From: Octopus vulgaris
Taxonomy: Eukaryota
Length of the DNA: 64,000 nt
Reading direction: 5' to 3'
NCBI GenBank assembly: GCA_951406725.2
Contig: OX597840.1
Coordinates: forward strand, 13,392,001-13,456,000
The notes below the pieces were generated by a model. It had not been told where the DNA came from and did no database searches. It saw nothing but the letters and a program-made list of their open reading frames with translations. The translations under genes were made by a program, and so were the position numbers. Shown piece by piece: positions 6,152-63,415 of the stretch (the first letter of the stretch is position 1; every line of letters begins with the position of its first letter).

Positions 6152-6301
6152 ATGGTTTTTGTTATAGATGGCACCCTAATGGCATGGGAGGAGATTAAAC
6201 TCTATATTCCACTTGTCAAGAACCAAGCAAGAATGCAGTTTGTTCATCAATACAAGAAATATAAGGACCTGAAAAACTACCCATTTTATTGGGGTGATGA
6301 G
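6152..6301 (+). CDS. GCLC: GCLC-like coding exon 1 ([16 protein letters not shown]...FYWGDE)
   Basis: ATG at 6152, 50 codons ending WGDE, donor GTAAGT at 6302. A probable acceptor (tttctatttAG, 6081-6082) gives a 5' UTR part at 6083-6151. Confidence 0.93.
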
Positions 6302-11635: not shown

Positions 11636-11694
<59 letters not shown>

Positions 11695-12001
11695 CAACAA
11701 TTAAGGAATGGCCTTAATAGGCCATTCGGCCCACTAGCTGGTTTGCCATTAAAAACACCGAAACGATGCATCGTCTAAAGATGAATTAGGGTAAATGTTT
11801 TTAAATTTTCATTTAATTTCTGAATTACTACTACTTAGCGGTTTGAGTCCTGGCTGCTTCTTCTAGTGGGCCGAATGGCCTATTAAGGCCATTCCTTAAT
11901 TGTTGTTGAATTTATATATATAGTCTTTGACTATTTTCTCTTTCCCACTAGACCGCTGGTAGCGATAAATTTCTATTGAATTTTTTGCTACCCTAAATTG
12001 A

Positions 12002-12051
<50 letters not shown>

Positions 12052-12408
12052 AAATAAGAAAATGGAGGAACAGATTCATTTTAATCATCGACTTACAGAT
12101 ATTACCAATTCATATTATTTATTAACTACATAAATAGGAACATCTAAATCCAACAAAATAAAACAATATACATCAATAAGTAAGATAATACCATAAAAAT
12201 AATATACATAAAATGGATCTTACAGCTGTTTCAGCCTGTAGATAAAGGTATCTCATTCTGCCTATATTAGTCAGATGTATTGAGGTAATATGCAGTTAAA
12301 AATGAGTTATTTATATATATATATCTCAAGGCCTCGTCAGAGATTATAAAGTATAATTATAAAAATATAAAAATGTAAATATAAATATGAAACAAAATGT
12401 ATACACAA

Positions 12409-12457
<49 letters not shown>

Positions 12458-22988: not shown

Positions 22989-24784
22989 CTATATATATAT
23001 ATATATATATAAGACGGGCTTCTTTCAGTTTCCGTCAATCAAATCCACTCACAAGGCTTTGGTCGACCCGGGGCTATAACAGAAGACACTTACCCAAAAT
23101 ATCACGCAGTGGGACTGAACCCGGAACCATGTAGTTAAGAAGCAAGATTCTTACCGCAGGGCCACGCCTGCGTCTATGATAAGTATAATCTATATATATA
23201 AAACTCAACTTGTGTGTCTCTGTGTGTGCCTGTGTGTTTAACTTCCCGACACATCTCCTCCTAGCCAACAAATCGTAGAACCACCAAAAATGGGTCACTT
23301 AAAGTTTAGGCGAATGAAAATTGAACTGCGCTATTTCTGTTTCGAAATTCATCTCTCAAGTGCAAAAATCGATAATGTGTTTGGTTAGGCCTTATCTCAT
23401 GCATTAAGCATGCGTAAATTGCATGAAAAATAAAAAAATCAAGATATAAAAACGAATCGCCGTAAACATTGTAGAAATTCGGCAAAGAAATAAATTTTCG
23501 GGATGTAGCCTGGAGGGTTTTTTCGTATTAATCGTTTGGACTTTGTGAACACATACCAATTGTTTTCATAACATTTTTAACGCTTTGAATTAAATGTGAC
23601 CATTTTGCGTTGAGTCTGTAGTTTGAATCACTTTAACCAAATTTTAGCAGGCCGGATTTTTGATCATCACGATACATCACCAGCGACTCCCTGAAACTCT
23701 CCCCTGAAATCCCCGTTGAGCCGGGCAATACTGCTAGTGATAAATATATTTTCTCTTTATAAACAAAAATATCAAAGCGTGTGGACCCCAGAATATGGCG
23801 AATATATGATGGAAGGCAAATCCAGAAATCCTTTTGGTAGTTCCATGGCTGATCTGAATCGTATAGAAGATTATTTTAAGGAAAGGTAACCATAATATTT
23901 TTTATTTACTTTATTTACATTTATACAGAAATATTTAAGACTTCATTCATTTTTCGTATTATTCATTTTGTAAAAAATAACATCGTTGATTTCTAACAGA
24001 CAAATGCCTGGTTCTCCGTATTTTTATTGGCCACATATTTGAATCTATAACGCCTGTTGTTTGTATATATGTACATATGTGTACGTGTGTGTGTGTTTGG
24101 GTGTGTGTGTAAATATATGCATATGTATATGTATTGTGGTTACGACGACGAGGGTTCCATTTGATCCGATCAACGGAACAGCCTGCTCGTGAAATTAACG
24201 TGCAAGTGGCTTGGCACTCTACAGACACATGTACCCTTAACATAGTTCTCGGGGAGATTCAGCGTGACACAGTGTGACAAAGCTGGCCCTTTGAAATATA
24301 GGTACAATATAAACTGGAAGAAAGAGTGAGAAAAAGTTGTGGTGAAAGTGTACAGCAGGGTTCGCTACCACCCCCTGCCGGAGCCTTGTGAAGCTTTAGG
24401 TGTTTTTGCTTAATAAATACTCACAACGCCCGGTCTGAGAATCGAAACTGCGATCCTACGACCGCGAATCCGCTATCCTAATCACTGGGCCATTGCGCCT
24501 GATATGTATAGTTGTTAAGGTATGCGCAAATATATATATCTGTATGTGTGTGTGAGTATATGTGTATAATTAAATACTTAGAATAGGCAAGAATTGGTCC
24601 AGGCCATGACCAACTTAGTACCACTCGGAGAAGACATTTAATGATGTTTTCCATTAGAGTCAATCTGTGGGCATCGCAGTCAAATAAAGAGTAATTGTTT
24701 GCAGAGTTATATCTGGGTGTAGATGGGTCATCTGGAATTTGTTGGAGGATGTCTAGATGCCTATACAGTTGTAAACCTCTGTGT

Positions 24785-26501: not shown

Positions 26502-27531
26502 GTATGTATGTATGTATATATGTATGTATACTCCCACTTAAAAGTGGATGTTGTGTAAGAACACAGAATACTGTTTTCGTTAACATGAGAGAACCTCTTA
26601 TATGGACTTGTTTACATCGCTAGCAGGAGACAGTCACCGCCATCATCGCCACCGAGACTACCACATCATGTAATTTCGGCCTTACTTGGCTTTGTCACTA
26701 GCAGACACCTGACTGCTGGAAATAGCAGCGACTACTCCGCTAGCGATATACATAAAATCACAGCACCTCATGAGGCACTGGCGTCATAGTGGGCTTATTG
26801 ACAAATAATTAAGGATTTCAAACTTTGGCACAAGGCCACCAATTTTGAGGAAGGGTGTAAGTCGATTACACTGATCCCAGTGCTCAACTTGTACTTATTT
26901 CATTGACCCCGAAAGGATGAAAGGCAAAGTCGACCTCGGCGAAATTTGAACTCAGATCATAAAGACGGACGAAATACCACTAAGCATTTTGTCCTTCGTC
27001 CTGACAGGTCTGCCATATCGCCGCCTTTTACTGACAACTAATAAATGGCTGGAGAGAATAAATATGTTCTTCACGGTTGACCTCCGTCTAAACTACAAAA
27101 CAACCACAATATATTTTGTGTTTTCTCTTTTTGCCGTTGTTTTTGTTGTTACTTTCTAAGCGTAAAATGTATAAAATCTATTTTGTTCAGTCTTATGATA
27201 CATCAAGAATCCATCTTGTTAATATTTTAGACGTAAATCCATAAAACAATTGTTGGGCCCAGATCAAAGTCTAGTTACTTCAACAGTTTTTCCAAGGTAA
27301 GTGAAATCTGTAAACCAATCCCGATTTCAAATTTTCACACAAGGTCAGCACTTTCAGGTAAGGAGACAAGTCGAATAAATCGACCCCAGTATTCAACTGG
27401 TATTTATTTTACCAATCCCGAAAGGAGGAAAGACAAAGTCAACCTCGACAGCATTTCAACTAAGAACTTAAAGACGGACCAAATGCCACTACACATTTTG
27501 CTTGGCATACTCTTTTACTCTTTTACTCGTT

Positions 27532-27604: not shown

Positions 27605-30600
27605 TAATAAGATATTTGTTTTGCAAGATTTTTGATGTGAAATCATGTGTTGAAACAGATATTGTATTTAGGAATGGTCATTTTGCCAGTTTAGCCAGTA
27701 AAAACACACGCACTATATATTTGGTGTTACTTTGCTTCGGTGTTATTTATTTTTTACATTAATCTTAATCTTATTTCGGCCACAGTTCTTTCGCTACACT
27801 CCTGTGACCTCATCAGTGGTCCTTTGCTTTCTTCTTTCTTATTTGTGTGTCTCTCCTTACTAACGGTCAGCCATGTATTCCTATTGTATGCGTCTTCATT
27901 TGCGCATGCGTATAACTCTATGTGTGTCTATGTTTAGTTAGTGTGTGTGATGAGGTCACAGGAGTGTGACGAAAGAACTCTGGCCGAAATAAGATTAAGG
28001 TTAATGTAAAAAATAAATAACACTGAAGCAAAGTAACACCAAATATATAGTGCGTGTGTTTTTACAGAATAAACTGGCAAAATGACCATTCCTAAATACA
28101 ACAATAATATTAATCTTTTCTACTTTAGACACAAGGCCCGAAATTTTGGGGGAAGGGGCCAGTCGATTAGATCGACCTCAATATGCAACTAGTACTTAAT
28201 TTATCGAATCCGAAGGATGAAAGCTAAAGCCAACCTAGGCAGAATTTGAACTCAGAACGTAACGACGGGCGAAATACCGCTAAGTATTTCATTCAGCGCG
28301 CTAACGATAATAGTTTTTGAAGCATGACCAGTAAACAAGTGTCACCTTAGTCTGCTGGTTGTGGACGGCTGAAACTTTCCATCATACTCAGAAAAATAAG
28401 CTGTGTTTTCATATTATTATTATTATTATTATTAAAATGTTTCAAATCTTGGTACAAGACCAGCAGTTTTTTAGAGGGAGAAAGATAGTTGGTTATATCG
28501 ATCCAAGTACTTAACTCATACTTTATTTCATCGACCCCGAAGGAAAGGAAGAAAAAGTTGACTTCGGTTGATTTGAACTCACAACGTAAAAATCCAGAAC
28601 TGCCATTAAGCATTTGTCATTTTATTTTATTTTACTTGACACAAATCGGCTGATATTGGCGACATTACATTAACAGGTTTGAATAGTTATTTTTATATAG
28701 AAATCGTATAAAAAGGAAATGAATTTTAATTATATCTGATCGTAATTAGTTTTAATTTTGCTTTCTATTTCAGACTGGGCCGACCTAATTTCACTTTCCC
28801 CTCTTTCGAACCAAACAAAAATCCAACTGAATTGCACCAGTCGATCTTCTTAGCGGATGCTCCTCTGTATTCCCATTTTCCGTTATTTAAGTGAGCCGTT
28901 TACATTTTTTACGTATTTTGTAGCATGTTAACGTTTTTCTGCGTTATTGAGTAGTTCAAATATCAACGGGATTCACTGATTTTTTTTTTATCTTAGAATA
29001 AAGTACCTGTCAATGACAGGGGTCGATGTAACCTACGCTACCATGTCCTCTCACAACGCGTAACCATTTCCCTATGTTAGATAGGTTAGACATCAGCATT
29101 TGGTCACAATACTTCTCTCTATCTTGTGTTCAAATCCTATCAAAGTCAGTATTGTCTTGCATCTAAAAAAACTGGTAGAAGACAGAAAGACTCAATACCA
29201 GAAACAAACCAAAGAGAAAAGGCAAGAGCGAATATAGAGTCATTGATAGCTAAATAAAGTTCTAGAAACAAAGTAACTACAGCTAAAATATAACTGTTGC
29301 TTAATAAAGACATCCACACGCGCGCGCGCACGCACACAGAGAGAGTGAGTGAGTGAGAGAGAGAGAGAGAGGTGGGGTATCAGTTAAAATTCTTCCAATT
29401 CACTTGTATAGATTATTCTTAGTTTATCTTCTATCATAAGTATTTTCCCGGCTGGTGAGTTCAGCCATTTTGTTTAAAGCTTTCATGGAAACTCAGAAGA
29501 GACAAATATAGTGTTTACCTCCGATGAAGTTTCTGTATCAGATCCACTCACAAGGCTTTAGTCGGCCCGAGGCTATTGTTGAAGACACTTGCCCAAGGTT
29601 CCACGCAGTGGGACTGAACCTGGAACCATGTGGTTGGGAAGCAAGCTTTCTAGACAGCCATTCCTGCACCTTATATGTTAGCAAGATTAAAGGTAAAAGA
29701 AGTTGTTTTGTATGATAGAATGCAGTTGCAGCTGAGGTTTCTATATTTAAAAAGACTAAACAGGAACCATGATCTTCGAAATTGTCAAATTTTCAATTCT
29801 TAAATATTTTATATTTTCCCAATCAAGTCAGCGAACTCAAAATATTGTGAACAGAAGAAAGGAAAGAATTTCCATTAACGTACCGAGTAAGTATATTAAA
29901 CATAAAATAGATTGTCTTTCTAATAAGTGAGATATCAATATATTCATATATAAATTAGTACACAAACTTTTGAACAGTTTTTTTATAAGTAATATGACTC
30001 TTACATATTTCTTATAAGTAATATGACTCTTACATGGTTCGAATAATGCTTCAATTTATTTCAATATTTCCCTCAATAATAATAATAATAATAATAATTA
30101 ATGTTAGAACTGTAATGGAGTTATATATTGCATTGGTGCTCAACGCTGGGAGCACATTTCGGTGTAGCCGGGGCCGTTGTAAGCCAATGGAGGCGTTTGA
30201 ATAACTCCTGTTCTTTTGCCACTCAGTTGTTATTTAATATCAATTTTTTAAATAAAAGCGCAATTTTCAAAAATAATTTGGAAACCAACATTTTTAACCC
30301 CTCGGACGAGGTCGAAATTAAAGGAAACTGGTTCTTGCAAAGGATACTTAGCTCTGTGTATACAATGAGTTAACAATTCAGTTCTTTTATTCAAATCATT
30401 TCTTCCTTCAAGCAAATTTTGTAATAATATAATTATATATCTCGATTTATAATTTGCATAATATTTCTTCGAAATATGTCATTCCTTATTGTGCATTTGA
30501 TTATAATTTGTAAACTGGTTCTGCCTCGAATATAAAATTGTTGTTTCAGTTTATAAAGATAAAAATACCATGATGCCATATGGGGAAGACTTGTCTGTGT

Positions 30601-38218: not shown

Positions 38219-41200
38219 GTGTGTGCTTGTGTGTGTGTGTGTTCGCGCGTGCATACGTATGTGTGAGTGGATGTGTATATGTGCGCATGCCCGTGTGTCG
38301 GTGTGTATTATCAGTTCTTTCTTGAAAGCATGTTACAATTATGTAAATTTAATTGGTTAAATTATTTGTTAATTAATCAGGTGTTGATGAAATGATGTCC
38401 AAATACGTTGCCCAACTCCTGGTCAGAGACCCAATCGTTTTATACAAAGAGAAGATCGATCAAGACATAATGAATGATACGGATCACATTCAGGTAAAAC
38501 ATAATTCTTGAATGCTTTTTATTTAAAAATAAATTGGTTGGAGTTATCAAGGTAGAAATTAACTCTATGATAGACTAATTTTTGCCTTCCCTTGGCCTTC
38601 GACACCTGATGGAATCGTAAAGATTATGTCGTGTTGTAGCGTGTATTTCGAACATTTTACAATCGATCCGATTTCTTCCAGAGAGAAACAGACAAACAAA
38701 CAGACAGACAGACACGCACATTGTAAGACTGATACAGGAAGAGAAACAATAAAGAAAAAAGAGAGAGTGAGACATGAAACATCTTCAAAATTGAATTGGT
38801 ATATTCGTATTTATCAAGACTCGAAATTATGCAGTGCGAAGTTTATTTTGGTAAGATTGGGATTCCGTATCGCAGAGACGGAGAGGAAATAACGCAACCC
38901 ACTCTATCTGACACCCTAATGACTCAGCCAATTTACCACCTGATTCCTAAGTCTCTGTACTCCTTAATCGTCAAAAGGGACGTATTAAGTTTCCAGTAGC
39001 CGGGACCTCTATATAACTTATATATGTCGAGCTTATAGGTGACCATCTTGTGATCACTGTAGCTGGCCATGTGAAACTGTGGACACCGAGCTATCTTCTT
39101 ATCTACTTTTCTAATTAATATTCTATCTAGATAAGACCTGGAAGATCCGTCGCTATTTTCCCATGTCCACAATAGAGCATTCGGAAATTCCAGTCTGTAT
39201 GGATCTACCAGCTCAAAACGTCTTAGTAGATCCTGGTAGCAAGCATTACTTCTATTAACACATGAGCCAACAGAATCTACGCGTGCATCGCAGATTGTGT
39301 TATAGTCTCCTACCACAACTAAAGGATGTGATGTACCAAGAAACTTCTCTAGGTTCCGATAATACTCAGTTTGCCCCGTATCTTGAGGTGCATAAATTGC
39401 AACCAGTTTAATAGTCTTACAATGGGTGAACGTCAAGTCAATGACGACCAGCCTACCTTCTGGATCTGCAAAAATCAACTTTTTCTCAGAAATCCAGTTT
39501 CTTTTTAATATGGCCAACACCCTACTCCCGCTACGAGGACAGCACGGAGAGATGAATCTCTCGTAACCGTCAAACAGCGTGAATGCTTGACATGGACTTA
39601 CCTTTGTCAGTGGTACTCTCTTTTTCACTGGTTCGTGGGGTGATATTCTGACATATTTCCTCGTACATCGACTTGTTAAAATCAAGTCTTGGAGGAATCA
39701 CGTAAGTTGGGTGGTAGTTTTCAAGATGCAATAGTTCATTTTATCTATTTTATAAATGGCAATATTTTCTGGAGTCTTATGATGATGTTTGTAAATTGAC
39801 GCCGTTGGTATTTGCTTTAACCTTTTTCTTTTAATTGTTTGTTATTATTTATTGCAGTCGGCATTTCCTTATATTCGTTAGATTTTCTTGGACTTGATAT
39901 CGGGAACAGATTGACTGGGCTTGGCGGATGAGGGGTGATGTTTGGGAGAGGAGGGAAATCCCAACTAGAGGTGCTAGGGGGGTCTCATCGCCGATGGGGG
40001 AATAGGATGGGGAGGAATCTGATATTGTTGATTTTGGGGAGGAATGGCGGTGGAGTGGGGTAATTTTTCTTTGAGTGTCCTGAGTTTTTCTTTTGGTTGT
40101 TGTAGGGTTGGGTTGAGTTGGTTGTCATTATTATTTTCCCTTTTTGGGGGGTCTTACTACCGACTACCCGGCTTATTGAACACCATCAGTGCCGTGGTTC
40201 TGCTGGTCGGTCTTTTGGTTTTGTTCTTCTTCTTCTTCTTCTTCTTCTTCTTCTTTCTCCTTTCTCCTTGCGGGTGGGGCAGTTTACCCGAATGTGGTCT
40301 TTTTCGCCACATTCGTAACATCTGGGTTTCCCGCCCTCCACCATTACCCGCAAGGTGGTTTCTTCTCCGATGTAGATGTTCTCAGAAATTTCTTCTAACG
40401 TCTGGAGGGCCGCTTGGATTATGATCTCAAGCCCTTGGCCTCGCCAGTGGTTTTCTGAAAGCTTCAATTATCTTGATTTTTATCCTCAAGCCCCACTAGA
40501 AGGGCTGAGATAATCCATATGACATTTATTTCTGGTGGGATTTCCTCAATAACTATTTTGGATGTTCTCCTACCCATATAAGTTGGTAATAAAATGACTT
40601 CGTTGGTTTTCATCGGTTGGAGCGAGTGTTTTATAGCCTTTTCCTCATTTTTGAAGTACACCACTATTGTGGCGTATCTTCTCCCTCTGGTCAAGAACTC
40701 GATGTCTTGCCAGATGGATTGTAGACACTTCTCGATTTGGTCTTTGGATACCTTGTCTATTTTCTTGTCTTTTATTATCATTGTCTTATATGTTATTATT
40801 TTCCTCTTTGTTTCTTCGATGAGTTCATTGGGGGTGGAGCTTTAACATCAAAACCTTCCCTTTCGAACATAACCTCTGTGCTGCCGCAGTGAATCTAGCT
40901 CTATGTTCAATTTATCTTTCCTCACACTGGCTGCGGTGGCAAAATTAATCTTCTTTTGGTTGTCTTCTGTTGGGTTTACTTATCCGTTATTCATTTTATC
41001 ATTTTCAGCATTTATTTTTCCTTCTTTGTTCCTTTTCCAGTTTACTGCATTTATGTGGCTTTCGTTCACATTTTCATTCGTTTGGTCTTGTTTTACAATT
41101 GCTCTTTGGTTAGCTTGGTCAGGGTTAGAACACTTGTCCTCCGAATTCATTTTTACAAAAATACATATCTTCCAAAATATTTTTTCAAAAATTGTTTCAA

Positions 41201-42298: not shown

Positions 42299-43897
42299 TG
42301 TTTTGCAACTATACTCCCCCCGGAACCGACTATGGTTTCCCGCGCAGGCTCCCCGCCGGGTCATCGAAGCGGGACAAACAAGGACAGACTAACGGATTAA
42401 GTCGATTATATCGACCTCAGTGCGTAACTGGTACTTATTTAATCGACCCCGAAAGAATGAAAGGTAAAGTTGACCTCGGCGGAATTTGAACTCAGAACGT
42501 AGCGGCAGACGAAATACCGCTAAGCATTTTGCCCGGCGTGCTAACGTTTCTTATTTCTTTATTGCCCACAAGGTGCTAAACATAGAGGGGACAAACAAGG
42601 ACAGACAGAGGGATTAAGTCGATTACATCGACCCCAGTGCGTAACTGGTACTTAATTTATCGACCCCGAAAGGATGAAAGGCAAAGTCGACCTCGGCGGA
42701 ATTTGAACTCAGAACGTAAAGACAGACAAAATACCGCTAAGCATTTCGCCCGGCGTGCTAACGTTTCTGCCAGCTCGCCGCCTTTCCTATATATCACAAT
42801 ACTAAATGAAAGCCACTGTGAGAGATATTTTCTCCTGGTTTTCCTAACCAATAGTTAGTAATGTGCATTATACACAAGAGGAGGCACAATAGCCCAGTGG
42901 TTAGGACAGCGGATTCGCGGTCATAGGGTCGCGGTTTCAATTCCCTGACCGGGTCTTGTGAGTGTTTATTGAGCGAAAACACCTAAAGCTTTACGAGCTT
43001 TCGGCAGTGGGTGGTGGCGGACCCTGCTGTACTCTTTCACCACAACTTTCTCTCTTCCTGTTTCTCTTGTACCTGTATTTCAAAGGGCCAGCCTTGTCAC
43101 ACACTGTGTCACGCTGAATCTCCCCGAGAACTACATTAAGGGTACACGTGTCTGTGGAGTGCTCAGCCATTTATACGTTAATTTCACGAGCAGGCTGTTC
43201 CGTTGATTGGATCAACTGGAACCCCCGTCGTCGTTACCGTCGGAGTGTCACGATACACAAGAATGTATTATATACGAATAAATACTGTGTGCTTAATTAA
43301 ATTGTTATAAATGTACAATATCAGTGGAAAACCTTGTTTAACATTCTGTTTTAGACCATTATTGGAAGTAATTGGCACAGCTTGAAACTGAAACTTCCTG
43401 ATGAGAAATCTGGATGGAAAATAGAATTCAGAACAATGGAGGTAACATTTTACTAGAAACTATCTCCTTAATAAATATTGGGTTGTCCGGAAAGTTCGTG
43501 TCGATTTTTAAAGGAAAGAAAAAGGTCAATAAATACTTGCCATTACATTTTTCATCAACCAAATATGAACCATTTTGTTGCACAATGCGTCTCCATCTTT
43601 CCTTCAGCTTGAAAATACCCTCTTCCCAGAATTGAGGTGACTGGGAGGGTAAGTCAAAAGGTAAGCTACTATAAATCGGCACAAACTTTCCAGATAACCC
43701 AATTTTGTAGTATGCTTCATTGTATATTGGCTCAGGTATAATTATTTGGTGTTGGTTTCATATCAACATGGCTCTGAGTTCAATCTCACCACGAGTCACC
43801 TTGCAGAAGTGTTTTCTAATAATTTGGGGTTGATTGATATCTTGAGTGGAATTTGGTATATTCTTTGTCTAGTTTGAGCCATCAGACACATACACAT

Positions 43898-46905: not shown

Positions 46906-48153
46906 CTTATATATATTTTATGTACGTATTTTATATATTTCCAGCTTCAGTTGACCGATTTTGAAAACGCTGCCCTTGTCGTATTTCTGGTTCTTCTTAC
47001 CCGAGTTATACTTTCTTTCAAATTAAACCTTTTGGTCCCAATAACGAAGGTAAACATTGATTTCTCTACAATAAACATTAAACCATCTGAAGCACCCATA
47101 CGTATGTAAGCTATCACTCACCTAGGCTCTTAATCCCGCCTAGGACACTGACCATCGACGATCTCCCTCCACTCATTCCAGTCCTCACCATTCCTCTCCA
47201 TTATTTCTCGGTCATCTACATCTCATTCTGCAGTTTTGTACCCTTCCTCTTGTTCTTCTCTTCTGGAGGTTCCAGCTAAGGAACTACTTTGTTACGCTGG
47301 TGTGGAGGTCTCACAAAACAGTGGATCCAGTCCAGTGCCACTTACTTTGCTTTATCTCCCTGTCAATGGGGGTCTGCTGGGTTTGCTCCAAAAAGGTTGT
47401 GTTGCTGAATTTCTTCAGTTAACGGACTGAGAATCATTTGCTGATGACATTCTGGGTCTTCTCTAGTGCTGCTTTTGTATATCTCCTCTTCTTGGTCCCA
47501 TAAAATAGAACTAACCGTGGTGAGAGAACTTGCGTAGTTCTTTTACAATAAAACCTATATTGGTAGAGAGTTTATGATCTCTGACTGATCCATTAATTCC
47601 GAACCGGCTAAAATGTAGGATATAGGCTAAAAACTAGTCCCTGGTCTACTAATTAAAGTTTACGCATGGAGGAAAAACAAAGCAATATGAGTTACAGGAG
47701 ATATTTAATCATATCTCAACACACCGGTTTCATAGCATTATCATTTTTCAAGCTATTAATGTCATCCTTAATGAAACATTTAAATTATTTACATGAACAA
47801 TACGTTTTAGTTGCTATGAACTCCGGCCGTCTTGCTGGATTATTTATTTATTTATTTATTTATTCGCTAGTTTCATCATTCGATGGTAACCATGTTGGGA
47901 TACCGTCTTTAAAAGTTTCAGTAAATTATATCAACCACAGCATCCATTCATTTTATCAGTTTCTCTTTATCAAAAGACCGACCGTGGACCATGGAGAACT
48001 GTATGGGCTTAACAGTCAATGATTTCGAGTGAAGATTCACACAACACAAACTCTTTCCGGTAAAGACTCAGTGAAATTTCCACCTCAAACTCCTACTTTA
48101 TCTGAAAACTCCAAGACAAAACATGCGACATCCCTAGCACCACATACATTATT

Positions 48154-49943: not shown

Positions 49944-51874
49944 TCATTTTCTACTCAATTTTATCCTCTTCAAGGTTGATGAAAACTTCACATCAGCACA
50001 AAAGCGGGATTCCACTAATACAGAAAAGTTTCACTTCAGGAAAAATATTCAAAAGGGTAAGAATGAAATTTCTTGGAAATTTTCAGAGTAATTATTACTT
50101 AATCTTGACTAAATATTTATTTCTTTATTGCCCACAGGGGGCTAAACATAGAGGGGATAAACAAGGACAGACAAAGGGATTAAGTCGATTACATCGACCC
50201 CAGTGCGTAACTGGTACTTAATTTATCGACCCCAAAAGGATGAAAGACAAGGTCGACCTCGGCGGAATTTGAATTCAGAACGTTAAGACAGGCGAAATAC
50301 AGTAACATATTTCGCCCGGTGTGCTAACGTTTCTGCCAGCTCGCCGCTTTGTTTTTGACTAACTATTGTTATAGGTTAGAAAATGTCAGCCCTTACTGAG
50401 TAGAAATATGTTCAAATAAATTCCATTCATGACCAGTCTGTATTTTTAAAGATTAATTCCGCTCCATTTATCAATGAATCCTGCCTCATTTCAGTTCGGC
50501 AGGTGATATCAGGAAGGTTTTGGTCGCCATTGCCAGCTTATCAAGCGGTTATGTAACGACTCATGGCTGCGAATATTAATTAAGGCTCGATGATAATAAG
50601 TTAATTAATACATTTTCCTATTCTTAATCAAATCAACAAACACATCTGTGTAAAACCTAAGAGCTGCTATGTCAGGGGTGTCACAACCGGAGTGTCACAA
50701 CAGCATTTAAGGGTGTCCACCAGAGTTTATATTTTTTCTATTGGAGTAAAACAAGGGGTGTCATGTACATTAATTGTAAGGAGGAAAGGTGACGGGGTCA
50801 CGGAAACAGTGGGAATCATTACTATTTGTCTCTCACAATATACAAACATGTAAATTTGCATAGTGAAGGTGCGTGGTCGAGTGGTTAAGGTTTTCGGCTA
50901 TCGAATCGTAATATCGTGAGTTCAATTACTGGAGTGGGCAGCACGTTATGTCTTTGAGCACAACACTTCATTTTACATTGCTCCAGTCTTCTCAGTACCA
51001 ACCAAATTCTGGTACTGTCTTTCTCTCTGTCACTCTTTCTCTCTCACCCTCTCTCCAGCTCTCTTATCCTGGATGTGCCGCTGGCTGAAATGGTAAGAGA
51101 GTCGAGATCATATCTATGACTACTCGCGACTACATAAGCACCTAAAACAATGAGCAAAAGTTTGGTACATGTCATCGAGCCATATTCGTAAGTAGGTGAC
51201 GGCTGGCTCCACATTTACCTTATAATAGAAACACTTATTACTGTTGTTATTATGATATGTTTGGCTTTTGCTTTGTATTTGCACAAGTTGACCCCAAGAC
51301 TCACCCAGAGACCTCAAGGGACAAGTTAGAAGTTCAAGTTATGACTAGGGTGTCATATGTTGGGTTTTGAACTGAGTATTGTTCTAGAGAATTCTGTCAA
51401 AACAAGTAAATTAAAAGTTTGTTTTAAAAGTAATTTGATTATAAGATGATAGTTTGATGTTGAGATGACAGTAAAAAGTGTTTGCTGTTATGTACATTTA
51501 AAAGTATTTTGGCAGTTTACGGATTAAAATGTTTTGGGTATTACATTATTATTATTATTATGTAATAGAAATATTAAAATTACTAAGTCTCTCTAAAAGA
51601 GAACAACGGCAGCGTTCCCGGAAAATAATAGTTATCGCCATACTAATATGGCATTCTTATAAAAATAAGAATAAAGCTGTCCGCTTATTAGCTCCATGAG
51701 GCCATCGCCTTAAGTTAGCTATTGTTCGAAGGTTATATGGATACAGTTTGTGTATCAAATAGCTAACTTAAGGCGATGGCCTCATGGAGCTAATAAGCGG
51801 ACAGCTTTATTCTTATTTTTATAAGAATGCCATATTAGTATGGCGATAACTATTATTATTATTATGATTATTAC

Positions 51875-57011: not shown

Positions 57012-57068
<57 letters not shown>

Positions 57069-60000
57069 GAGTGAGAGAGCAGTGCATGCCACCAAAGTGA
57101 CTCTGAGGTAAAATATACGAAGCCCAGTATACCCATCATGGTTACTCGTCTGATAAGCGTACACCAGGCACATGCATCACATTATTATTATTGTTGTTGT
57201 TGTTGTTGTTGTTGTTGTTATTATCATTATTATTGTTCTTATTATTATCCTTATTATCGTTGTTGTTATTGCGATCAATTAGACTCTGCTGATTGTGAAC
57301 CAACTGATGATATTTGCACATTGATGACTATAAATGAAATCATGAATGGAAAGGTAAAAAAATATTTCAAATCTTAAAACACATTAATTTTTCTCTCCTG
57401 ATTTTTTTTTTAAACAATGAATGATATTTAAATCAATTTTAAACTTATATCTAGCCCAAAGGAGTCTTCTTTTACGATTTTACTTATCTCAGTCATTGGA
57501 GTGTGGCTATACTGGAGCACCACCTTGGAAGGTGTAGTCCAGTAGTCCAGTGGTTATCAAGCATCTTTTAACTAAAGACCTCTTTGATTTTAATTTTATT
57601 CTAGTGGACCCTTCATGACCATCCAGTGTCTGAAAGCTAATTCTATTGATATTCATTTCAAAACTCCTATTTTGTTTTTCATGTATTCGCTTGTATAGGT
57701 TTGGCAATGCTACTCTGTGAGAGAAACATGTTAAACTATGTTAAAGATTAGAGAAAGAAACCTACCAGTTTCTTACAATAAAAACATCTAAAAGAAAAGT
57801 TGGGTTTATTTTGTTTCATAGACCCTTAAAATACAACCGAAGATCCCCAATTTACTATTTTGCTTCCATAGACCCCACAAAATCTTATATAGACCTCTGT
57901 TGAGAACCACATGTGAAGTCGAACAAATCGCCACCAGTACTTATTGCTCTCCGTCTGGTACTTATTCTATCGGCCTTTTTTGCCGAACTGCTAAGTTAGG
58001 GGACATTAACAAATCAGGCAGTAGTGGGATACAAATAAACGCACATACATATACATTCGTATACAGCTGGATTTGTAGGGGACAAAAGAGCAACTGTCCT
58101 GGTCCCACCAGTATCGGCCCCCACAACACTGATATAAGTAGTAGGCTCTCTATATTGGGAGTCACCCCTTTCTGGCAGATTTGCATGAAGAGTGCCTCCG
58201 CCATTCTATTTCTTAAAAAATCAGTTTTAAAAAATTTTCAAAAATACATTTTCTCCACTTTAGCGTCACCAGTTACTAAATTCTCTTCCAATCTTTCTGT
58301 CTATCTGTCGTCCTCCATTCTCCCTATATCTTTTTCCTGTCTATCTGTCTATCTCTATTCTCTCTCTTTCTTTCTTTCTCTCTCTCTCTCTCTCTCTCTA
58401 TTTTACTCTCACTTATCCTCTCCCACTCTTTCCCTTTCTTGTTTGTTTACTCTCTTTCTCCTACTTATTCTCCTCTCTCTATCAGTTATCCTCTCTTTAT
58501 ATATATCTATCTGTCTGTCTGTCTCTCTCTCTCTCTTTCTCTCTGTCTTTCTCCCTCTCCTTTCTGTTTGCTTTTCTATTTCCCACTCTTCCTCTTTCAA
58601 TGTTTTCTTACTCTCTTCAACTTATTCTCCTTCCATTTCTGTCAATTCACTATTTATCCGACTGTCTATCTATGAGTCCTCCCCTCTCTATATATCTATC
58701 TTTTTGTTTGTCTGTCTGTCTATTTATCTCTCTCTCTCCCTCTCTTTCTAGCTCTATCTCTGTCTTTTCGTTTGCATTTCCCTCTTACCCTCTTTCTCCT
58801 CCTACAGCCATAACTTCCTCTCTTTCTCTCTTACACTCCCTCCTCTCCGTCCTGAACATGCTTCACTGCCCGTTCTTTCCTGTCTACTCTAACTATTCCT
58901 CTCTCCCTCACAACCTCATAACATTAGAGAGGTTAAACCACTTCCCGGGTAAGGTCTTCTCTCTGGTTACGCTTCGTTTCGTCTTTCCTGTGATCGTCGC
59001 CATGTCAAATTTAATTAACGCTATGTCTGAATTCTCATTAATTCATTAAATTAGTACTTTTTTTTCACTGAACCCAAAGGTAACCTGAATAGTGTGAACA
59101 GAGGGAAGTACAGATATTATGTAAGACAATGCGGTTGCTTTACCTGTTGGAAATAGCAGCCAGGTTGCCCTCAAATCACTTCCTACTGTCTCTTAGAAAA
59201 GATGCATTTGACAGTGTATTTCTAGACGTATTATGTCAGAAATACAGAATGGCTGGTCAAGCTGAAACATCTTTGATCGTAGGTCTGCTAGCTCAGGAGT
59301 GGCCTGGGGCTGAATAATCATATATTTTTATGTACTTTATAAAATAGAAATTAGAAAATCAGAGGTGGCCTTTCTCCTATAAAAACCAACAATCACCTCA
59401 ATGTGGTTTGGGGGCGAACCAGAAATTGGGAGAACGATGGCAACGGTACTTGAATGACAATCTAAATAGTAACTTATATGATATATGGAGGCGCAATGGC
59501 CCAGTGGTTTGGGCAGCGGACTCACGGTCCGAGGATCGCGGTTTCGATTCCCAGACCGGGCGTTGTGTGTGTTTATTGAGCGGAAACACCTAAGGCTCTG
59601 CGAGATTCCGGCAGGGGGTGGTGGCGACCCCTGTTGTACTCTTTCGCCCCAACTTTCTCTCACTCTCTCTTTCTGTTTCTTGAGTAACGCTGCGATGGGC
59701 TGGCGTCCCGTCCAGCTGGTGGTGGGGAATACATACGCCATAGAAACCAGGACACCGGGCCTATGAGTCTGGCTAGGCTTGAAAAGGGCAATGAAAAAAA
59801 CATCTTAAAAGTAAGAAATTTAAATAGAAAAAAATTCCTGTTTTACAGAAAAAGAGTTTAAGAAAATATTCAAACTTCCAATTTTTCTGAAAAATATTAT
59901 TGTTATAAAGGAAAAAGGTTTAATAAAATGTTGAGCATTCAAAATTTAGAAACTGGAATCGAATTTTAATTGGCATTTTGTTGTCCTTTTTGAAATGCTC

Positions 60001-62087: not shown

Positions 62088-62119
<32 letters not shown>

Positions 62120-63415
62120 TAGATAAGTTCCATTTGCTGTGAGGAACGAAGAATCCGCATGAAAACATAGATTATAATTATGGTGCCTAATCTGGAGAAA
62201 TAAAGGTCAGAATCAGAATCAGGACAATTTTTTGACCCAGAAACAAGTCTTACTTAACTTGTATTTCTTTTGAACCTGAAATTTGTTGCACAGTGTTATT
62301 AAACTCTTCTATTAAATCTTGGACTGAGCAGAATGGTTCTCTTGCAGAGTTGAAATGCTCAAGAACACAACAGGCGACCCAGTCCGGGATTCGAACTCAC
62401 AACCTCACGATCGTAAGCTCGACTCTCTAACGGATAAAAATTTCTTAGCTTCTCTTCCCAATTTTGCAATATTTCTTTATTACAAAAATATCATTAAACT
62501 TTATAACTTGTTGGTCGACATCTCGAACAATTTCTTGCTTACAGGACAGAAGGTTCAAACTATTTCCAATTATTTTGATTCTATTCTCAACAGGATGATT
62601 TCCCTGGTTTAATTCCTCTCATACACAAATATCTTGATTATAATTACGATACCGGTAGCAGACCTCAAAATATGAAATACCTGAAATATATTTCAGACAA
62701 AGCTGCAGGTAAGATGATTCATTTGTTTCCGTCGACTCATCCACCTTCAAATAGTTTTGAAAGCCCATAGAAAATGCGAGCCTTTTACGTGAAAAACTGT
62801 GGATTTGTATAAAGGACACACAGACACACAGATACACAAACATTTTGCCGTTTATAGATATAGAGATGTTGCTGCAAATACACAACATTTAATCTCTAAT
62901 GATGCTAGTTTGTTCTTTTTAATTATAAAATATAATGTTAAACTATCTTTTAACCTTGTAACAACCATCGTTAATAAACCATCAAACTCCAAATACTACG
63001 TACTTATATGAAGAAAACTGTGTGTGTGTGTGATTCTATCACAGTTAAACCATTCTATCACAGTTTGGTTTTAAGCAATGTTTTCAAAACAGTTATCACA
63101 GCTAAAACGAATAAAGAAAAGAAACAATTAGGGCTTTATCTGTTTTTGCCTCAGATCACGAAGTCAGGATATTGTTACAGAATACAGCAAATAATTTCCA
63201 TATAAAATAAATAATAAACCTTTTTTTTTATTTTCATTTAATTTATAGGAAAGATAAGGACAATGGCCCAATGGACAAGACAGTTTGTAACAAATCATGA
63301 AGATTACAAGAATGACTCTGTTGTCAGTGAGAGAATCGCTTATGATTTTATGATGGAATGTGAGAAGATTGTCAACAACGAAGAAGGATGTCCTCAAGCA
63401 TTTATCAGGAGTTAA
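6152..63415 (+). CDS. GCLC: Glutamate-cysteine ligase catalytic subunit-like gene, 16 coding exons, ~611 aa (whole-gene span)
   Basis: Hand-spliced exons give a continuous frame with compatible intron phases and GCLC motifs in the right order: [87 protein letters not shown]. All donors are GT and all acceptors AG except the preferred exon-3 acceptor. Confidence 0.95.
6360..6650 (+). mobile_element. 3' fragment of a restriction-like-endonuclease non-LTR element (Hero/NeSL-like)
   Basis: ORF 6371..6649 matches the E.RI..AH..K.EKY..L...VE..GF...AISE..E..S.WI pattern typical of RLE C-termini. Confidence 0.6.
7228..7474. mobile_element. hAT (Charlie-like) MITE
   Basis: Termini agtggttctcaac and ggttgcgaaccaccg are imperfect inverted repeats of the CAGTGGTTCTCAACC type. 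Confidence 0.55.
7857..11631 (+). mobile_element. Near full-length RTE-clade LINE with a frameshifted APE-RT ORF
   Basis: ORFs 8454..9425 (APE: [20 protein letters not shown]), 9590..10210 and 10217..10546 ([10 protein letters not shown]), LFADD near 10646, and 10769..11497 (RLRWLGHV...PK.LLYG). GC-richer than its flanks and ends at a (TA)n tract. Confidence 0.93.
12454..13880 (+). mobile_element. 5'-truncated Penelope-like element with an inverted pLTR
   Basis: + frame 12927-13153 gives NEHWRQ...SILYQH...R.ITEA.HI...PSLNRKLEW (GIY-YIG endonuclease C-terminus). ~475-bp inverted arms at 12454-12928 and 13347-13825; flanked by (TA)n. Confidence 0.82.
14507..17515 (-). mobile_element. hAT-superfamily DNA transposon with a degenerate transposase
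   Basis: TIRs cagtgttgccaa (14507) and ttggcaaccctg (17504-17515). Minus-strand pieces: N-terminal Zn finger (AHCRYC), [21 protein letters not shown] and hATC-like [13 protein letters not shown]. No TSD seen. Confidence 0.88.
17617..17800. repeat. Compound microsatellite (TATC)n(TA)n(GA)n, one of many in the window
   Basis: Directly visible. Similar (CA)n, (TA)n and (TAA)n tracts at e.g. 730-840, 25060-25150, 26430-26520, 27533-27610 and 56975-57070. Confidence 0.95.
18388..18494 (+). CDS. GCLC: GCLC-like exon 2 ([19 protein letters not shown]...)
   Basis: ttttttAG acceptor, GTGAGT donor, phase 0 to 2; resembles the family segment EYMLVSFDHENKKVRL. Confidence 0.92.
19087..21655 (-). mobile_element. 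5'-truncated Tx1/L1-clade LINE (RT plus C-terminal Zn-binding region)
   Basis: [32 protein letters not shown], (N)ADD and [16 protein letters not shown]. Confidence 0.9.
21992..22211. repeat. ~80-bp inverted repeat of a Helitron-like 5' segment
   Basis: atatcaaatttgagcgcaatc...agaacggattt (21992-22071) is the near reverse complement of 22132-22211. Confidence 0.7.
23189..23737 (+). mobile_element. Non-autonomous Helitron
   Basis: A|TC start, sub-terminal GC hairpin cccg..cggg, CTAG|T end, no TSD. Ends 25 nt upstream of GCLC exon 3. Confidence 0.8.
23763..23885 (+). CDS. GCLC: GCLC-like exon 3 ([18 protein letters not shown]...FKER); start 23763 (AA acceptor) or 23778 (AAG acceptor)
   Basis: PEYG/MEG motif, donor GTAAC at 23886. 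The 5' boundary is ambiguous; both options are phase 2. Confidence 0.88.
25152..26418 (-). mobile_element. Tc1/mariner transposon, degenerate
   Basis: TIRs taggatgtccccaaattaa.caaccaa and ttggttgccttaattttgggacaccctg, in TA/TG microsatellite. Transposase pieces QQD and [20 protein letters not shown]. Confidence 0.88.
27231..27296 (+). CDS. GCLC: GCLC-like exon 4 ([22 protein letters not shown])
   Basis: ttttAG acceptor, GTAAGT donor, 66 nt, ends in the FPR motif. Confidence 0.9.
27609..28101. mobile_element. Second copy of the Penelope-like pLTR (same family as 12454-13880), folded back
   Basis: Inverted arms at 27662-27815 and 27948-28101; adjacent to (TAA)n. Confidence 0.78.
28774..28890 (+). 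CDS. GCLC: GCLC-like exon 5 (LGRPNFTFP...QSIFLAD...HFPLF)
   Basis: tttcAG acceptor, GTGAGC donor; resembles LGCPGFT...SLFFPD...HPRF. Confidence 0.9.
29828..29886 (+). CDS. GCLC: GCLC-like exon 6 ([19 protein letters not shown])
   Basis: caAG acceptor, GTAAGT donor, 59 nt; T.NI..RR....INVP motif. Confidence 0.9.
30550..30767 (+). CDS. GCLC: GCLC-like exon 7 (YKDKNT...[22 protein letters not shown]...TPIM)
   Basis: tttcAG acceptor, GTAGGC donor; overlaps ORF 30570..30866; core GCLC signature. Confidence 0.95.
31610..32126 (-). mobile_element. Non-autonomous Helitron (termini related to 23189-23737)
   Basis: Minus strand starts TCtatatatat..aaaactg and ends cccgagcaacgccgggcgatactgCTAG|T. Confidence 0.8.
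33730..33846 (+). CDS. GCLC: GCLC-like exon 8 ([21 protein letters not shown]...[11 protein letters not shown])
   Basis: cttcAG acceptor, GTGAGT donor, 117 nt. Confidence 0.95.
36298..36436 (+). CDS. GCLC: GCLC-like exon 9 ([22 protein letters not shown]...YND...)
   Basis: ttattAG acceptor, GTATTT donor, 139 nt. Confidence 0.92.
38381..38493 (+). CDS. GCLC: GCLC-like exon 10 ([26 protein letters not shown]...DHIQ)
   Basis: atcAG acceptor, GTAAAA donor, 113 nt; RDP motif. Confidence 0.92.
38890..41360 (-). mobile_element. 5' half of a Tx1-clade LINE (ORF1 with CCHC knuckle plus APE endonuclease)
   Basis: ORF1 pieces 40464..40781 and 40186..40467 ([14 protein letters not shown]); ORF 38933..39685 ([30 protein letters not shown]). 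Confidence 0.9.
41930..42785 (-). repeat. Nested/tandem array of four SINE-A units
   Basis: Repeated cgaccccgaaaggatgaaaggcaaagtcgacctcggcggaatttgaactcagaacgta; only the outermost unit keeps the full tRNA-like head. Similar stack at 44210-44615; single copies near 18920, 26820, 28115, 33155, 35815, 46175, 50120, 53845 and 61030. Confidence 0.88.
42253..42368 (-). pseudogene. ~116-nt 18S rRNA fragment embedded in a SINE
   Basis: Reverse complement reads ...ggttccggggggagtatagttgcaaaacagaaacttaaaggaattgacggaagggcaccaccaggagtggagcct, the universally conserved eukaryotic SSU rRNA segment. Confidence 0.92.
42880..43251 (+). mobile_element. tRNA-derived SINE with a shared central domain and an RTE-like tail
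   Basis: Head gcccagtggttagg...ggtttcaattccc (A/B boxes). Relatives near 24140-24500(-), 31020-31310(-), 34125-34430(-), 34660-34940(-), 35420-35720(-), 36739-37040, 37258, 59487 and 63849. Confidence 0.85.
43355..43441 (+). CDS. GCLC: GCLC-like exon 11 ([29 protein letters not shown])
   Basis: ttttAG acceptor, GTAACA donor, 87 nt; divergent form of NIQSTNWQTMRFKPP...GWRVEFRPME. Confidence 0.93.
43478..43702 (-). mobile_element. Internally deleted mariner element (MITE-like)
   Basis: ~30-bp TIRs ttgggttgtccggaaagttcgtgtcgattt and aaatcggcacaaactttccagataacccaa. Retains the mariner C-terminus [23 protein letters not shown]. Confidence 0.85.
44889..46052 (-). mobile_element. 3' fragment of a Tx1-clade LINE
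   Basis: ORFs 45709..46047 (GGL.KPWL) and 45129..45626 ([16 protein letters not shown]), homologous to the 19087-21655 copy. Confidence 0.88.
46396..46852 (+). mobile_element. Full-length tRNA-derived SINE-B with an internal (TA)n(TG)n tract
   Basis: Head ggcgcaggagtggctgtgtggtaag...gggttcagtccc, tail gactgaaacaagtaaaagagt. Minus-strand copies near 845-1015, 3790-4250, 4905-5490, 22770-23170 and 37710-37980. Confidence 0.85.
46945..47049 (+). CDS. GCLC: GCLC-like exon 12 ([35 protein letters not shown])
   Basis: ttccAG acceptor, GTAAAC donor, 105 nt; well-conserved segment. Confidence 0.95.
48513..49438. mobile_element. Fold-back Penelope-like pLTR with a minimal type I hammerhead ribozyme motif
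   Basis: ~345-bp inverted arms at 48513-48858 and 48984-49335, hammerhead motif at 49107-49175. The terminal part 49355-49438 recurs inverted at ~24860-24945. Flanked by (TA)n. Confidence 0.75.
49975..50056 (+). CDS. GCLC: GCLC-like exon 13 ([13 protein letters not shown]...FHFRKNIQK)
   Basis: cttcaAG acceptor, GTAAGA donor; VDEN...AQKRD...F.FRK motif. Confidence 0.93.
51624..51857. repeat. 100-bp perfect inverted repeat with a 34-nt loop
   Basis: 51624-51723 is the reverse complement of 51758-51857. Confidence 0.9.
52630..55150 (-). mobile_element. Old degraded R4/Dong-like LINE interrupted by SINEs
   Basis: Pieces [33 protein letters not shown] and [14 protein letters not shown]...AAQDQSL. 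Confidence 0.8.
55403..56974 (-). mobile_element. Young 5'-truncated R4/Dong-clade LINE (RLE endonuclease) in a (TAA)n tract
   Basis: Intact 431-aa ORF with [50 protein letters not shown]; (TTA)n on both flanks. Confidence 0.92.
57283..57353 (+). CDS. GCLC: GCLC-like exon 14 ([24 protein letters not shown])
   Basis: attAG acceptor, GTAAAA donor, phase 1 to 0; resembles TLMSIDTIINGK. Confidence 0.88.
61540..61800 (+). mobile_element. hAT transposase C-terminal (dimerisation) remnant
   Basis: [33 protein letters not shown] matches the hATC ERSFS.L..IK..LR pattern. Confidence 0.7.
62594..62708 (+). CDS. GCLC: GCLC-like exon 15 ([15 protein letters not shown]...[11 protein letters not shown])
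   Basis: caacAG acceptor, GTAAGA donor; FPGLIP motif. Confidence 0.93.
63249..63415 (+). CDS. GCLC: GCLC-like terminal exon 16 ([28 protein letters not shown]...CPQAFIRS*)
   Basis: ttatAG acceptor; resembles TVARWMREFIANHPDYKQDSVI; stop TAA at 63413-63415. Confidence 0.93.

What the first reader, a model, noticed from the sequence alone, without database searches (positions are those of the whole stretch)
6152..63415. Intact but remodelled GCLC paralogue: metal and catalytic residues kept, substrate pockets rewritten
Seen: an uninterrupted 16-exon frame keeps WGDE-IE, PEY, MEG, LQVT, DCRW and EFR (the Mg ligands and catalytic Arg). Motifs I recall as near-invariant in eukaryotic GCLC are changed: HPRF>FPLF (28877-28888), DAMGFGMG>DTKLFGLG, the active-site Cys before LQ>Ser (CCSLQ), EGTP>EGKS, KSRY>KTRF, HFENIQSTNWQTMRFKPP>[18 protein letters not shown] and GWRVEFRP>GWKIEFRT. 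Established: these segments line the cysteine, glutamate and ATP sites of yeast and trypanosome GCL. Inference: this is probably a lineage-specific duplicate rather than the housekeeping glutathione enzyme. It may ligate glutamate to another amine, escape glutathione feedback, or serve a non-catalytic role; cephalopod S-crystallins derived from GST are a precedent for enzyme recruitment.
Basis: partly seen in the sequence, partly recalled or inferred. Interest (0 to 1): 0.75.

Follow-up and report, generated by a model that had tools for sequence, protein, structure and literature searches.

The report
Octopus glutathione-enzyme copies with rewired pockets
This octopus gene is an intact, spliced copy of the first enzyme of glutathione synthesis, one of at least six such copies that exist in addition to the normal gene; it keeps the catalytic metal-binding residues but has replaced those that likely hold cysteine, so it likely joins glutamate to some other small amine.

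Summary
Confirmed and extended. The window holds a 16-exon, all GT-AG, stop-free gene (606 aa) of Octopus vulgaris, spliced in contigs of 4 of 4 runs laid. It is not the housekeeping GCLC: a canonical copy lies on a different chromosome-scale contig (54% identical). It belongs to an octopod clade (100/100 support) of at least six O. vulgaris paralogues on one 40-Mb contig, with members in O. sinensis, O. bimaculoides and Argonauta. All six Mg ligands, the catalytic Arg and the ATP Lys are kept in 8 of 8 paralogue rows. The glutamate and ATP sites are only modestly changed. The cysteine (acceptor) pocket is rewritten (6 of 7 columns, against 25% background) and differs among paralogues more than normally variable columns do (72% against 38%). 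The Arg of HPRF is lost in every paralogue. Best reading: active ATP-dependent gamma-glutamyl ligases with new, paralogue-specific acceptors, likely amines without an alpha-carboxylate; two new basic residues point to an anionic amine (taurine or beta-alanine type) for this copy. No activity was shown. Similar remodelled duplicates arose separately in mussel, clam and horseshoe crab. My searches found no description in print.

The parts
6152..63415 (+). GCLC-derived gene, 16 coding exons, 606 aa
   Evidence: splice model; 603/606 identical to O. sinensis XP_036370512.1; PF03074 E 2.4e-136 for that orthologue
6152..6301 (+). exon 1, ATG to WGDE; D49, E50 (metal ligand). Left out of the public O. 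vulgaris model CAI9741797.1
18388..18494 (+). exon 2; E52 (metal and glutamate ligand) at 18391-18393
23778..23885 (+). exon 3; E91 (yeast E96), E98 (E103) kept; T105>K100, P106>S101
27231..27296 (+). exon 4
28774..28890 (+). exon 5; HPRF>FPLF (H194>F179, R196>L181 at 28883-28885, F197 kept). Left out of CAI9741797.1
   Evidence: covered by contigs in 4 of 4 runs
29828..29886 (+). exon 6 (59 nt); L200>R185 at 29832-29834
   Evidence: X4 contig 14 has 59 letters between its exon 5 and exon 7 pieces (table 8)
30550..30767 (+). exon 7; M258>K240 (30660-30662), M262>L244, C266>S248 (30684-30686); C264, Q268, T270, Q272 kept
   Evidence: spliced joint to exon 8 in 4 of 4 runs
33730..33846 (+). exon 8; DCRW with R295 (yeast R313) kept
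   Evidence: joints on both sides in 4 of 4 runs
36298..36436 (+). exon 9; KSRY>KTRF (Y362>F328 at 36337-36339)
38381..38493 (+). exon 10; HFE>HIQ
43355..43441 (+). exon 11; W405 (W445), K411 (K451), E422 (E470), R424 (R472) kept; R449>K409, R468>K420
46945..47049 (+). exon 12
49975..50056 (+). exon 13
57283..57353 (+). exon 14
62594..62708 (+). exon 15; the Cys of DTRC (position 553 in three 637-aa mammalian rows) is Pro537
63249..63415 (+). exon 16, ending in TAA; the protein stops about 27 residues short of the canonical octopus C-terminus

Best explanation
The gene is an intact, spliced member of an octopod family of GCLC duplicates that keeps every catalytic metal ligand and has a rewritten acceptor pocket, and it likely works as an ATP/Mg-dependent ligase that joins the gamma-carboxyl of glutamate to a small amine other than cysteine. 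Shown: intact frame, splicing, a separate canonical gene, clade membership, residue pattern. From known GCL chemistry: E50, E52, E91, E98, Q250 and E422 bind the Mg ions; ATP phosphorylates the glutamate gamma-carboxyl; R424 steadies the acyl phosphate; an amine then attacks it. Inferred: glutamate is still the donor (E52, R295, R424, C246 kept; only Y362>F). Cysteine is likely no longer the acceptor, because the Arg of HPRF (recalled as an anchor of the acceptor's alpha-carboxylate) is hydrophobic in every paralogue and the thiol pocket (recalled as yeast L200, M258, M262, C266) is replaced. Each paralogue likely has its own acceptor. Most speculative step: this copy puts Arg185 and Lys240 where the thiol pocket was, which would suit an amine with a distal anion such as taurine, hypotaurine or beta-alanine (about 0.2); paralogues with hydrophobic pockets would suit aryl-alkyl amines. 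Loss of the Cys553 equivalent suggests release from modifier-subunit control (role recalled).
For: E50, E52, E96, E103, Q268, E470, R472, K451, D49, T270, Q272 are kept in 8 of 8 paralogue rows, across lineages that are 63-80% identical to this protein. Catalytic-set columns changed 0 of 13, acceptor columns 6 of 7, other near-invariant columns 40 of 160 (Fisher p 0.04 and 0.002). Mean pairwise difference among 7 paralogue lineages: catalytic 6%, other invariant 18%, normally variable 38%, acceptor 72% (acceptor against variable columns, Mann-Whitney p 0.003). R196 is L, F, F, L, V, F, Y, L in the 8 rows, against R in 71 of 71 canonical rows and R or K in 140 of the 143 family representatives that have a residue there. 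Stem branch 0.83 against 0.11 for the canonical sister. Spliced GT-AG joints in 4 of 4 runs from 4 studies. Model of the orthologue: pTM 0.93, TM 0.88 to yeast 3IG5. Canonical GCL already accepts other amino acids (PMC10741565 passages). ATP-dependent gamma-glutamylation of amines is known in molluscs (EC 6.3.2.18 table row in PMC9547800; PMC6454038; PMC8155685). The same logic was argued, with loss of canonical activity measured, for nematode glutathione-synthetase duplicates (PMC5919673 section 8).
Against: No activity, substrate or tissue pattern was shown. The pocket roles of R196, F197, L200, M258 and C266 are recalled: the yeast structure papers were not held, names only E96 and W445 for cysteine, and both are kept here; no distances could be measured on the model. 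PMC6454038 describes gamma-glutamyl conjugation of monoamines as the gastropod route and says gastropods differ from cephalopods and bivalves in monoamine catabolism; the only Aplysia sequence retrieved is canonical. Three ribose-contacting positions (T105, R449, R468, mapped from the Leishmania model) are all changed, so nucleotide use may differ. Two lineages also lose W445 and one loses R313, so the family may not share one chemistry. No octopus gamma-glutamyl amine metabolite turned up in the listing.
Confidence: 0.55

Rival explanations
1. A regulatory variant that still makes gamma-Glu-Cys, with lower cysteine affinity and freed from glutathione feedback and the modifier subunit.
For: E96, F197, W445, R313 and all metal ligands are kept in this copy; the Cys553 equivalent is lost in 10 of 10 paralogue rows.
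Against: R196, L200, M258, M262, C266 are 70-71 of 71 conserved in canonical rows yet replaced here, two of them by basic residues; one shared substrate would not explain 72% pocket divergence among paralogues.
Confidence: 0.13
2. A non-catalytic protein recruited for a structural or binding role, as with the S-crystallins.
For: Cephalopod precedent (PMC13218726 passage); long stem branch; changes in all three substrate sites.
Against: Six metal ligands, R472 and K451 are kept in 8 of 8 rows while ordinary positions diverge by 18-38%.
Confidence: 0.1
3. A ligase in which the acyl donor has changed as well, making an octopod non-ribosomal amide such as a bond in the branchial-heart pigment adenochrome.
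For: Y362>F in 6 of 8 rows, R313>A in 1, remodelled FENIQST helix; adenochrome is an Octopus branchial-heart product (PMC7545470 passage; its peptide nature is recalled).
Against: E52, R472 and C264 are kept in 8 of 8 rows and R313 in 7 of 8; GCL-fold ligases that I recall use a glutamate gamma-carboxyl; no branchial-heart expression data.
Confidence: 0.1
4. A GCL-fold enzyme that runs a different reaction (gamma-glutamyl hydrolase or transferase), as Dop does relative to PafA.
For: All three ribose-contacting positions differ from canonical in this copy, and R468 is K in 8 of 8 rows against R in 145 of 149 representatives; the PafA/Dop pair shows the fold can switch reaction (abstract start of PMC8599861 in the listing; detail recalled).
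Against: The changes are to Lys; K451, Q272, T270, D49 are kept.
Confidence: 0.08
5. A young or decaying pseudogene.
For: No O. bimaculoides orthologue of this particular copy was retrieved.
Against: No stop or frameshift in 606 codons, canonical splice sites, spliced contigs, 99.5% identical intact orthologue in O. sinensis, constraint gradient among paralogues; 2 of the 3 listed exonic variants are synonymous.
Confidence: 0.02

Closest known systems
Eukaryotic glutamate-cysteine ligase catalytic subunit (GCLC / yeast Gsh1, EC 6.3.2.2, PF03074, PDB 3IG5)
   Same: Fold (TM 0.88), Pfam domain, six metal ligands, catalytic Arg, K451, R313, W445; direct descent from octopus GCLC.
   Different: 54% identical to the octopus canonical copy; 49 of 183 near-invariant columns changed against a median of 1; acceptor pocket rewritten; Cys553 equivalent, an internal Cys-rich loop and the C-terminal tail lost; multi-copy.
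GS-like effectors of plant-parasitic nematodes (Lilley et al. 2018, PMC5919673)
   Same: Housekeeping glutathione-pathway ligase duplicated many times; catalytic residue conserved, one substrate sub-pocket hypervariable among paralogues; new substrate inferred.
   Different: Second enzyme of the pathway and an ATP-grasp fold; secreted with signal peptides; loss of canonical activity measured. The octopus protein starts at the canonical Met with no added leader and is untested.
Gamma-glutamylhistamine synthetase of Aplysia (EC 6.3.2.18) and invertebrate gamma-glutamyl amine conjugation
   Same: ATP + glutamate + amine without alpha-carboxylate gives a gamma-glutamyl amide, the reaction class predicted here.
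   Different: Known as an activity in gastropods and annelids; I recall no gene for it; no remodelled GCLC was retrieved from Aplysia; the octopus clade is octopod-specific, so it cannot be the orthologue.
Cephalopod S-crystallins
   Same: Cephalopod expansion of a glutathione-pathway enzyme.
   Different: GST-derived lens proteins that may or may not keep activity; the GCLC copies keep the whole catalytic core and no lens link was found.

Membership tests
Eukaryotic GCL family (PF03074), by descent | Pfam GCS domain above the curated cut-off and GCL fold | tested here: met
   455 bits against cut-off 25; Foldseek 3IG5 E 1.4e-51, TM 0.88; both on the 99.5% identical orthologue P0002
Canonical GCLC (EC 6.3.2.2) | Mg ligands E50, E52, E96, E103, Q268, E470 and catalytic R472 | tested here: met
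   all kept; E50, E52, E96, E103, E470, R472 roles from PMC5613772 Table 3, Q268 mapped from its Gln328
Canonical GCLC (EC 6.3.2.2) | Glutamate alpha-carboxylate site R313 and Y362 | tested here: inconclusive
   R kept, Y>F; F also occurs in 2 of 71 canonical rows
Canonical GCLC (EC 6.3.2.2) | Cysteine pocket H194, R196, F197, L200, M258, M262, C266 | tested here: not met
   6 of 7 changed; pocket assignment mostly recalled
Canonical GCLC (EC 6.3.2.2) | Nucleotide site D49, T105, T270, Q272, R449, K451, R468 | tested here: inconclusive
   4 kept, 3 changed to Lys
Canonical GCLC (EC 6.3.2.2) | Is the orthologue of the housekeeping animal gene | tested here: not met
   separate canonical gene CAI9722052.1; trees
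Canonical GCLC (EC 6.3.2.2) | Forms gamma-Glu-Cys; inhibited by glutathione; binds the modifier subunit | not testable with these tools
   needs assay; the Cys553 equivalent is Pro, role recalled
Gamma-glutamylhistamine synthetase (EC 6.3.2.18) | ATP-dependent ligation of glutamate to histamine or related amines | not testable with these tools
   activity-defined; no reference sequence in hand
Enzyme-crystallin / pseudoenzyme | Loss or decay of catalytic residues | tested here: not met
   0 of 13 catalytic-set columns changed in this copy
Enzyme-crystallin / pseudoenzyme | Very high expression in lens or another structural tissue | not testable with these tools
   runs are unlabelled contigs without usable depth

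The most novel reading that the evidence does not exclude
Animals have repeatedly turned GCLC duplicates into an unrecognised class of gamma-glutamyl-amine ligases, and octopods expanded one into a panel of six or more enzymes, each tuned to its own amine (taurine-type anionic amines for this copy, biogenic amines for others). This would reveal an unknown octopus small-molecule pathway and supply candidate genes for invertebrate amine gamma-glutamylation, known so far as an activity (EC 6.3.2.18 type).
Probability: 0.3. Interest if true: 0.78.

Novelty: new variant of a known kind. Interest (0 to 1): 0.55.

Why it matters
The GCLC active site is nearly frozen from fungi to mammals (median 1 departure at 183 columns in 71 sequences). 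An octopod family that keeps the catalytic core but gives each copy a different acceptor pocket points to undescribed gamma-glutamyl chemistry in octopus. It is directly testable with recombinant enzymes and metabolomics, gives a natural mutant series for how GCL selects cysteine, and may yield useful gamma-glutamyl amide ligases. Databases label all copies simply 'glutamate--cysteine ligase', which would mislead octopus oxidative-stress studies, and the public model of this gene lacks two active-site exons.

Tried and rejected
No genome is held for the window, so tandem order and dN/dS were not computed; clustering rests on shared contig lengths and four consecutive accessions. No squid, cuttlefish or Nautilus GCLC of either kind appeared among the named hits or the 20 proteins looked up (17 of them representatives), so the duplication is not dated against decapodiforms; this is no evidence of absence. 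In one search no holder is on record as RNA; only the GT-AG joints are used as evidence, and contig depth is not used as expression. The careful 59-row tree did not finish (one search is the quick tree); the careful tree has 26 rows. One ancient origin for all remodelled GCLCs is not supported: the Mytilus, Mercenaria and Tachypleus copies group with their own lineages, and none of 11 such rows joins the octopus clade (long branches; no AU test run). Yeast structure papers were not held; a search for their residue names found 0 papers. Supplements of the skin-mucus (PMC10138644) and posterior salivary gland (PMC7693380) proteomes gave no match (the files may be cut). Only 3,805 characters of supplement are held for Albertin 2022, so unseen supplements may list this expansion. 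No complex prediction was run, as no modifier-subunit sequence was in hand. Earlier-findings look-ups returned nothing.

Full report
Observation. Exon 7 used as a query returned Octopus vulgaris CAI9741797.1 and O. sinensis XP_036370512.1 at 100% identity. CAI9741797.1 matches the window without a difference on its exons, including where the two species differ, so the window is O. vulgaris. A splice model guided by the O. sinensis protein gives 16 exons from 6152 to 63415, 15 GT-AG introns, 606 residues and no internal stop, with 3 differences from the orthologue. Because the joined protein was used only inside scripts, alignments, fold and family scans use that orthologue (P0002); its three differences fall in columns that vary among the canonical rows.

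It is transcribed. Contigs of 4 of 4 runs laid, from 4 studies, join 30766 to 33729 and 33846 to 36298 across GT-AG introns, with 0-2 differences per exon. One contig of X4 carries exons 5, 7, 8 and 9 in order with 59 letters, the length of exon 6, between 5 and 7. The runs are only guessed to be RNA and carry no tissue label, so tissue and level are unknown. Of three listed exonic variants two are synonymous and one is the O. sinensis residue.

It is not the housekeeping gene. O. vulgaris has a canonical GCLC (CAI9722052.1) on a 176.7-Mb contig, as do O. sinensis and O. bimaculoides; it is 54% identical to the window protein. The window gene has five O. vulgaris sisters (CAI9741796, 798, 799, CAI9742054, CAI9742280), 63-80% identical, all on a 40.2-Mb contig; four accessions are consecutive, which suggests a tandem cluster but was not checked on DNA. 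Counterparts lie on a 20.3-Mb contig in O. sinensis, two of them on a 22.6-Mb contig in O. bimaculoides, and Argonauta hians has at least one. In the careful tree (26 rows) the 8 paralogue rows form a clade (100/100) on a stem of 0.83 changes per column, sister to octopus canonical GCLC (100/99), whose own stem is 0.11. The quick 59-row tree agrees (17 rows). Argonauta falls inside the clade without a starred branch. No decapodiform sequence was retrieved, so the age is open.

What is kept and what is changed. Yeast numbers come from the alignments to 3IG5. In an 81-row alignment (10 paralogue rows and 71 others picked from the hits) 183 columns are at least 95% conserved among the 71. The octopus canonical protein departs at 0, the median canonical row at 1 (maximum 21), this gene at 49 and its sisters at 49-60. 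Kept in 8 of 8 paralogue rows: D49, E50, E52, E96, E103, C264, Q268, T270, Q272, K451, E470, R472. PMC5613772 (passages and Table 3) gives E50, E52, E96, E103, E470 as Mg ligands, Y362, E52, R472 for glutamate, E96 and W445 for cysteine, and D49 and K451 for ADP; its Leishmania residues Thr101, Arg481 and Arg494, placed at the ribose, map by offset to T105, R449, R468. This gene keeps R313 and W445, changes Y362 to F, and changes the three ribose positions to Lys. The columns I recall as the cysteine pocket change to H194>F179, R196>L181, L200>R185, M258>K240, M262>L244, C266>S248, with F197 kept. That is 6 of 7, against 40 of 160 other near-invariant columns (Fisher p 0.002) and 0 of 13 catalytic-set columns. 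Among 7 paralogue lineages the mean pairwise difference is 6% in the catalytic set, 18% in other invariant columns, 38% in 132 normally variable columns and 72% in the acceptor columns. The gradient from 6 to 38% shows continuing purifying selection; the 72% suggests diversifying selection on the acceptor.

How it likely works. Retention of the whole metal and catalytic set across the clade argues for continued acyl-phosphate chemistry on glutamate. The one acceptor change shared by all is loss of the HPRF arginine, which is R or K in 140 of 143 family representatives with a residue there. If it anchors the acceptor's alpha-carboxylate, as I recall, the new acceptors likely lack that group, meaning primary amines. 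This copy adds Arg185 and Lys240 at two normally hydrophobic pocket positions, which would fit a distal anion as in taurine or beta-alanine; gamma-glutamyl-taurine is a known animal metabolite (PMC10741565 passage) and the abundance of taurine in octopus is recalled. Against a biogenic-amine role, PMC6454038 (passage) assigns gamma-glutamyl conjugation to gastropods and says they differ from cephalopods and bivalves. I put an active ligase with a non-cysteine acceptor at 0.55, a deregulated GCL at 0.13, a non-catalytic role at 0.10, a changed donor at 0.10, a hydrolase or transferase at 0.08 and a pseudogene at 0.02.

Protein evidence for the family. The O. vulgaris ink proteome (PMC10142993, supplement rows and passages) lists sister A0A6P7TS50 by one peptide with 2 spectra, in 2 of 3 samples, both taken by milking dissected sacs. 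The peptide is absent from canonical GCLC and is tryptic in two sister lineages, but not in this protein, where it follows Thr. It shows weakly that a family member is translated and says little about tissue.

Wider context. Of 104 family representatives aligned over all scored columns, 19 keep the metal set and catalytic Arg but change at least 3 of 6 acceptor columns; 16 of these keep R196, 2 have K and 1 has A. Named ones among the 19 are from Mytilus, Tachypleus, Apostichopus, Lingula, Gordionus and Oppiella; Mercenaria, Rotaria, Halotydeus and the fungus Tulasnella have similar copies that fell outside that count. They do not join the octopus clade. Remodelling of GCLC duplicates is therefore recurrent, which makes the octopus case less unique but the theme larger; the octopus family stands out by clade-wide loss of R196.

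What is in print. NCBI and UniProt name all copies glutamate--cysteine ligase. Six full-text searches (listings only) showed no paper on this family; the main text of the Sepia officinalis genome paper has no GCLC mention (PMC13218726) and the small held supplement of PMC9068888 none. Subscription papers and unseen supplements were not covered. The nearest precedent is the nematode glutathione-synthetase expansion (PMC5919673, abstract and section 8). Also seen: passages of PMC9547800, PMC8155685, PMC7545470 and PMC7261830 (the last not used); supplement searches of PMC10138644 and PMC7693380 (no match). Biterova and Barycki 2009/2010 and the Cys553 role are recalled, not read.

Verdict. A real, intact, expressed member of an apparently undescribed octopod family of GCLC-derived enzymes. 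It is a member of the GCL family by descent and fold, and should not be filed as canonical EC 6.3.2.2. New variant of a known kind; interest 0.55.

Noticed in passing
proteins P0204, P0208, P0213, P0214, P0222, P0224, P0225, P0228, P0254 and others: GCLC duplicates with an intact metal site and a changed acceptor pocket occur in mussel, hard clam, horseshoe crab, sea cucumber, Lingula, hairworm, rotifer, mites and a basidiomycete, and appear to be separate origins; most keep R196.
   Followed up: partly
window 1260-1394 and about 4668-4772: The public O. vulgaris model CAI9741797.1 starts with two exons that did not match any other GCLC tested and skips true exons 1 and 5, losing E50 and the FPLF segment.
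   Followed up: yes
window 6150-6154: The start ATG directly follows an AG (tacag|ATG), which hints at an upstream untranslated exon.
   Followed up: no
P0143 and P0144 lineages (CAI9741796, CAI9742280): Two sister lineages also lose W445 (T, G) and one loses R313 and R361, while keeping all metal ligands; they may have changed donor as well.
   Followed up: partly
residues 2-4 and 40 of the protein (window 6155-6163, 6269-6271): The conserved N-terminal GLL and R40 are among the most variable columns in the family, like the acceptor pocket; they may form a lid over the active site.
   Followed up: no
window 8364-11497 (+), 20398-21123 (-), 38933-39697 (-), 45129-45692 (-), 55662-56957 (-): Broken LINE retrotransposon relics in introns (endonuclease, reverse transcriptase and zf-RVT matches); the one in intron 1 spans about 3 kb in four frames.
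   Followed up: partly
window 14707-16473 (-), 61487-61795 (+), 25276-25856 (-): DNA transposon relics: hAT dimerisation matches at 14707-15072 and 61487-61795 (the second below the Pfam cut-off); the 25.3-25.9 kb frames look Tc1/mariner-like by eye but gave no Pfam match.
   Followed up: partly
window 29483-29743, 33137-33397, 35747-36007, 42371-42768: Short high-copy interspersed repeats in introns attract thousands of contigs; one occurs as a 217-bp tandem pair.
   Followed up: no
PMC10142993 supplement, protein A0A6P7TS50 (P0008): A sister paralogue was detected by one peptide in O. vulgaris ink-sac contents.
   Followed up: partly
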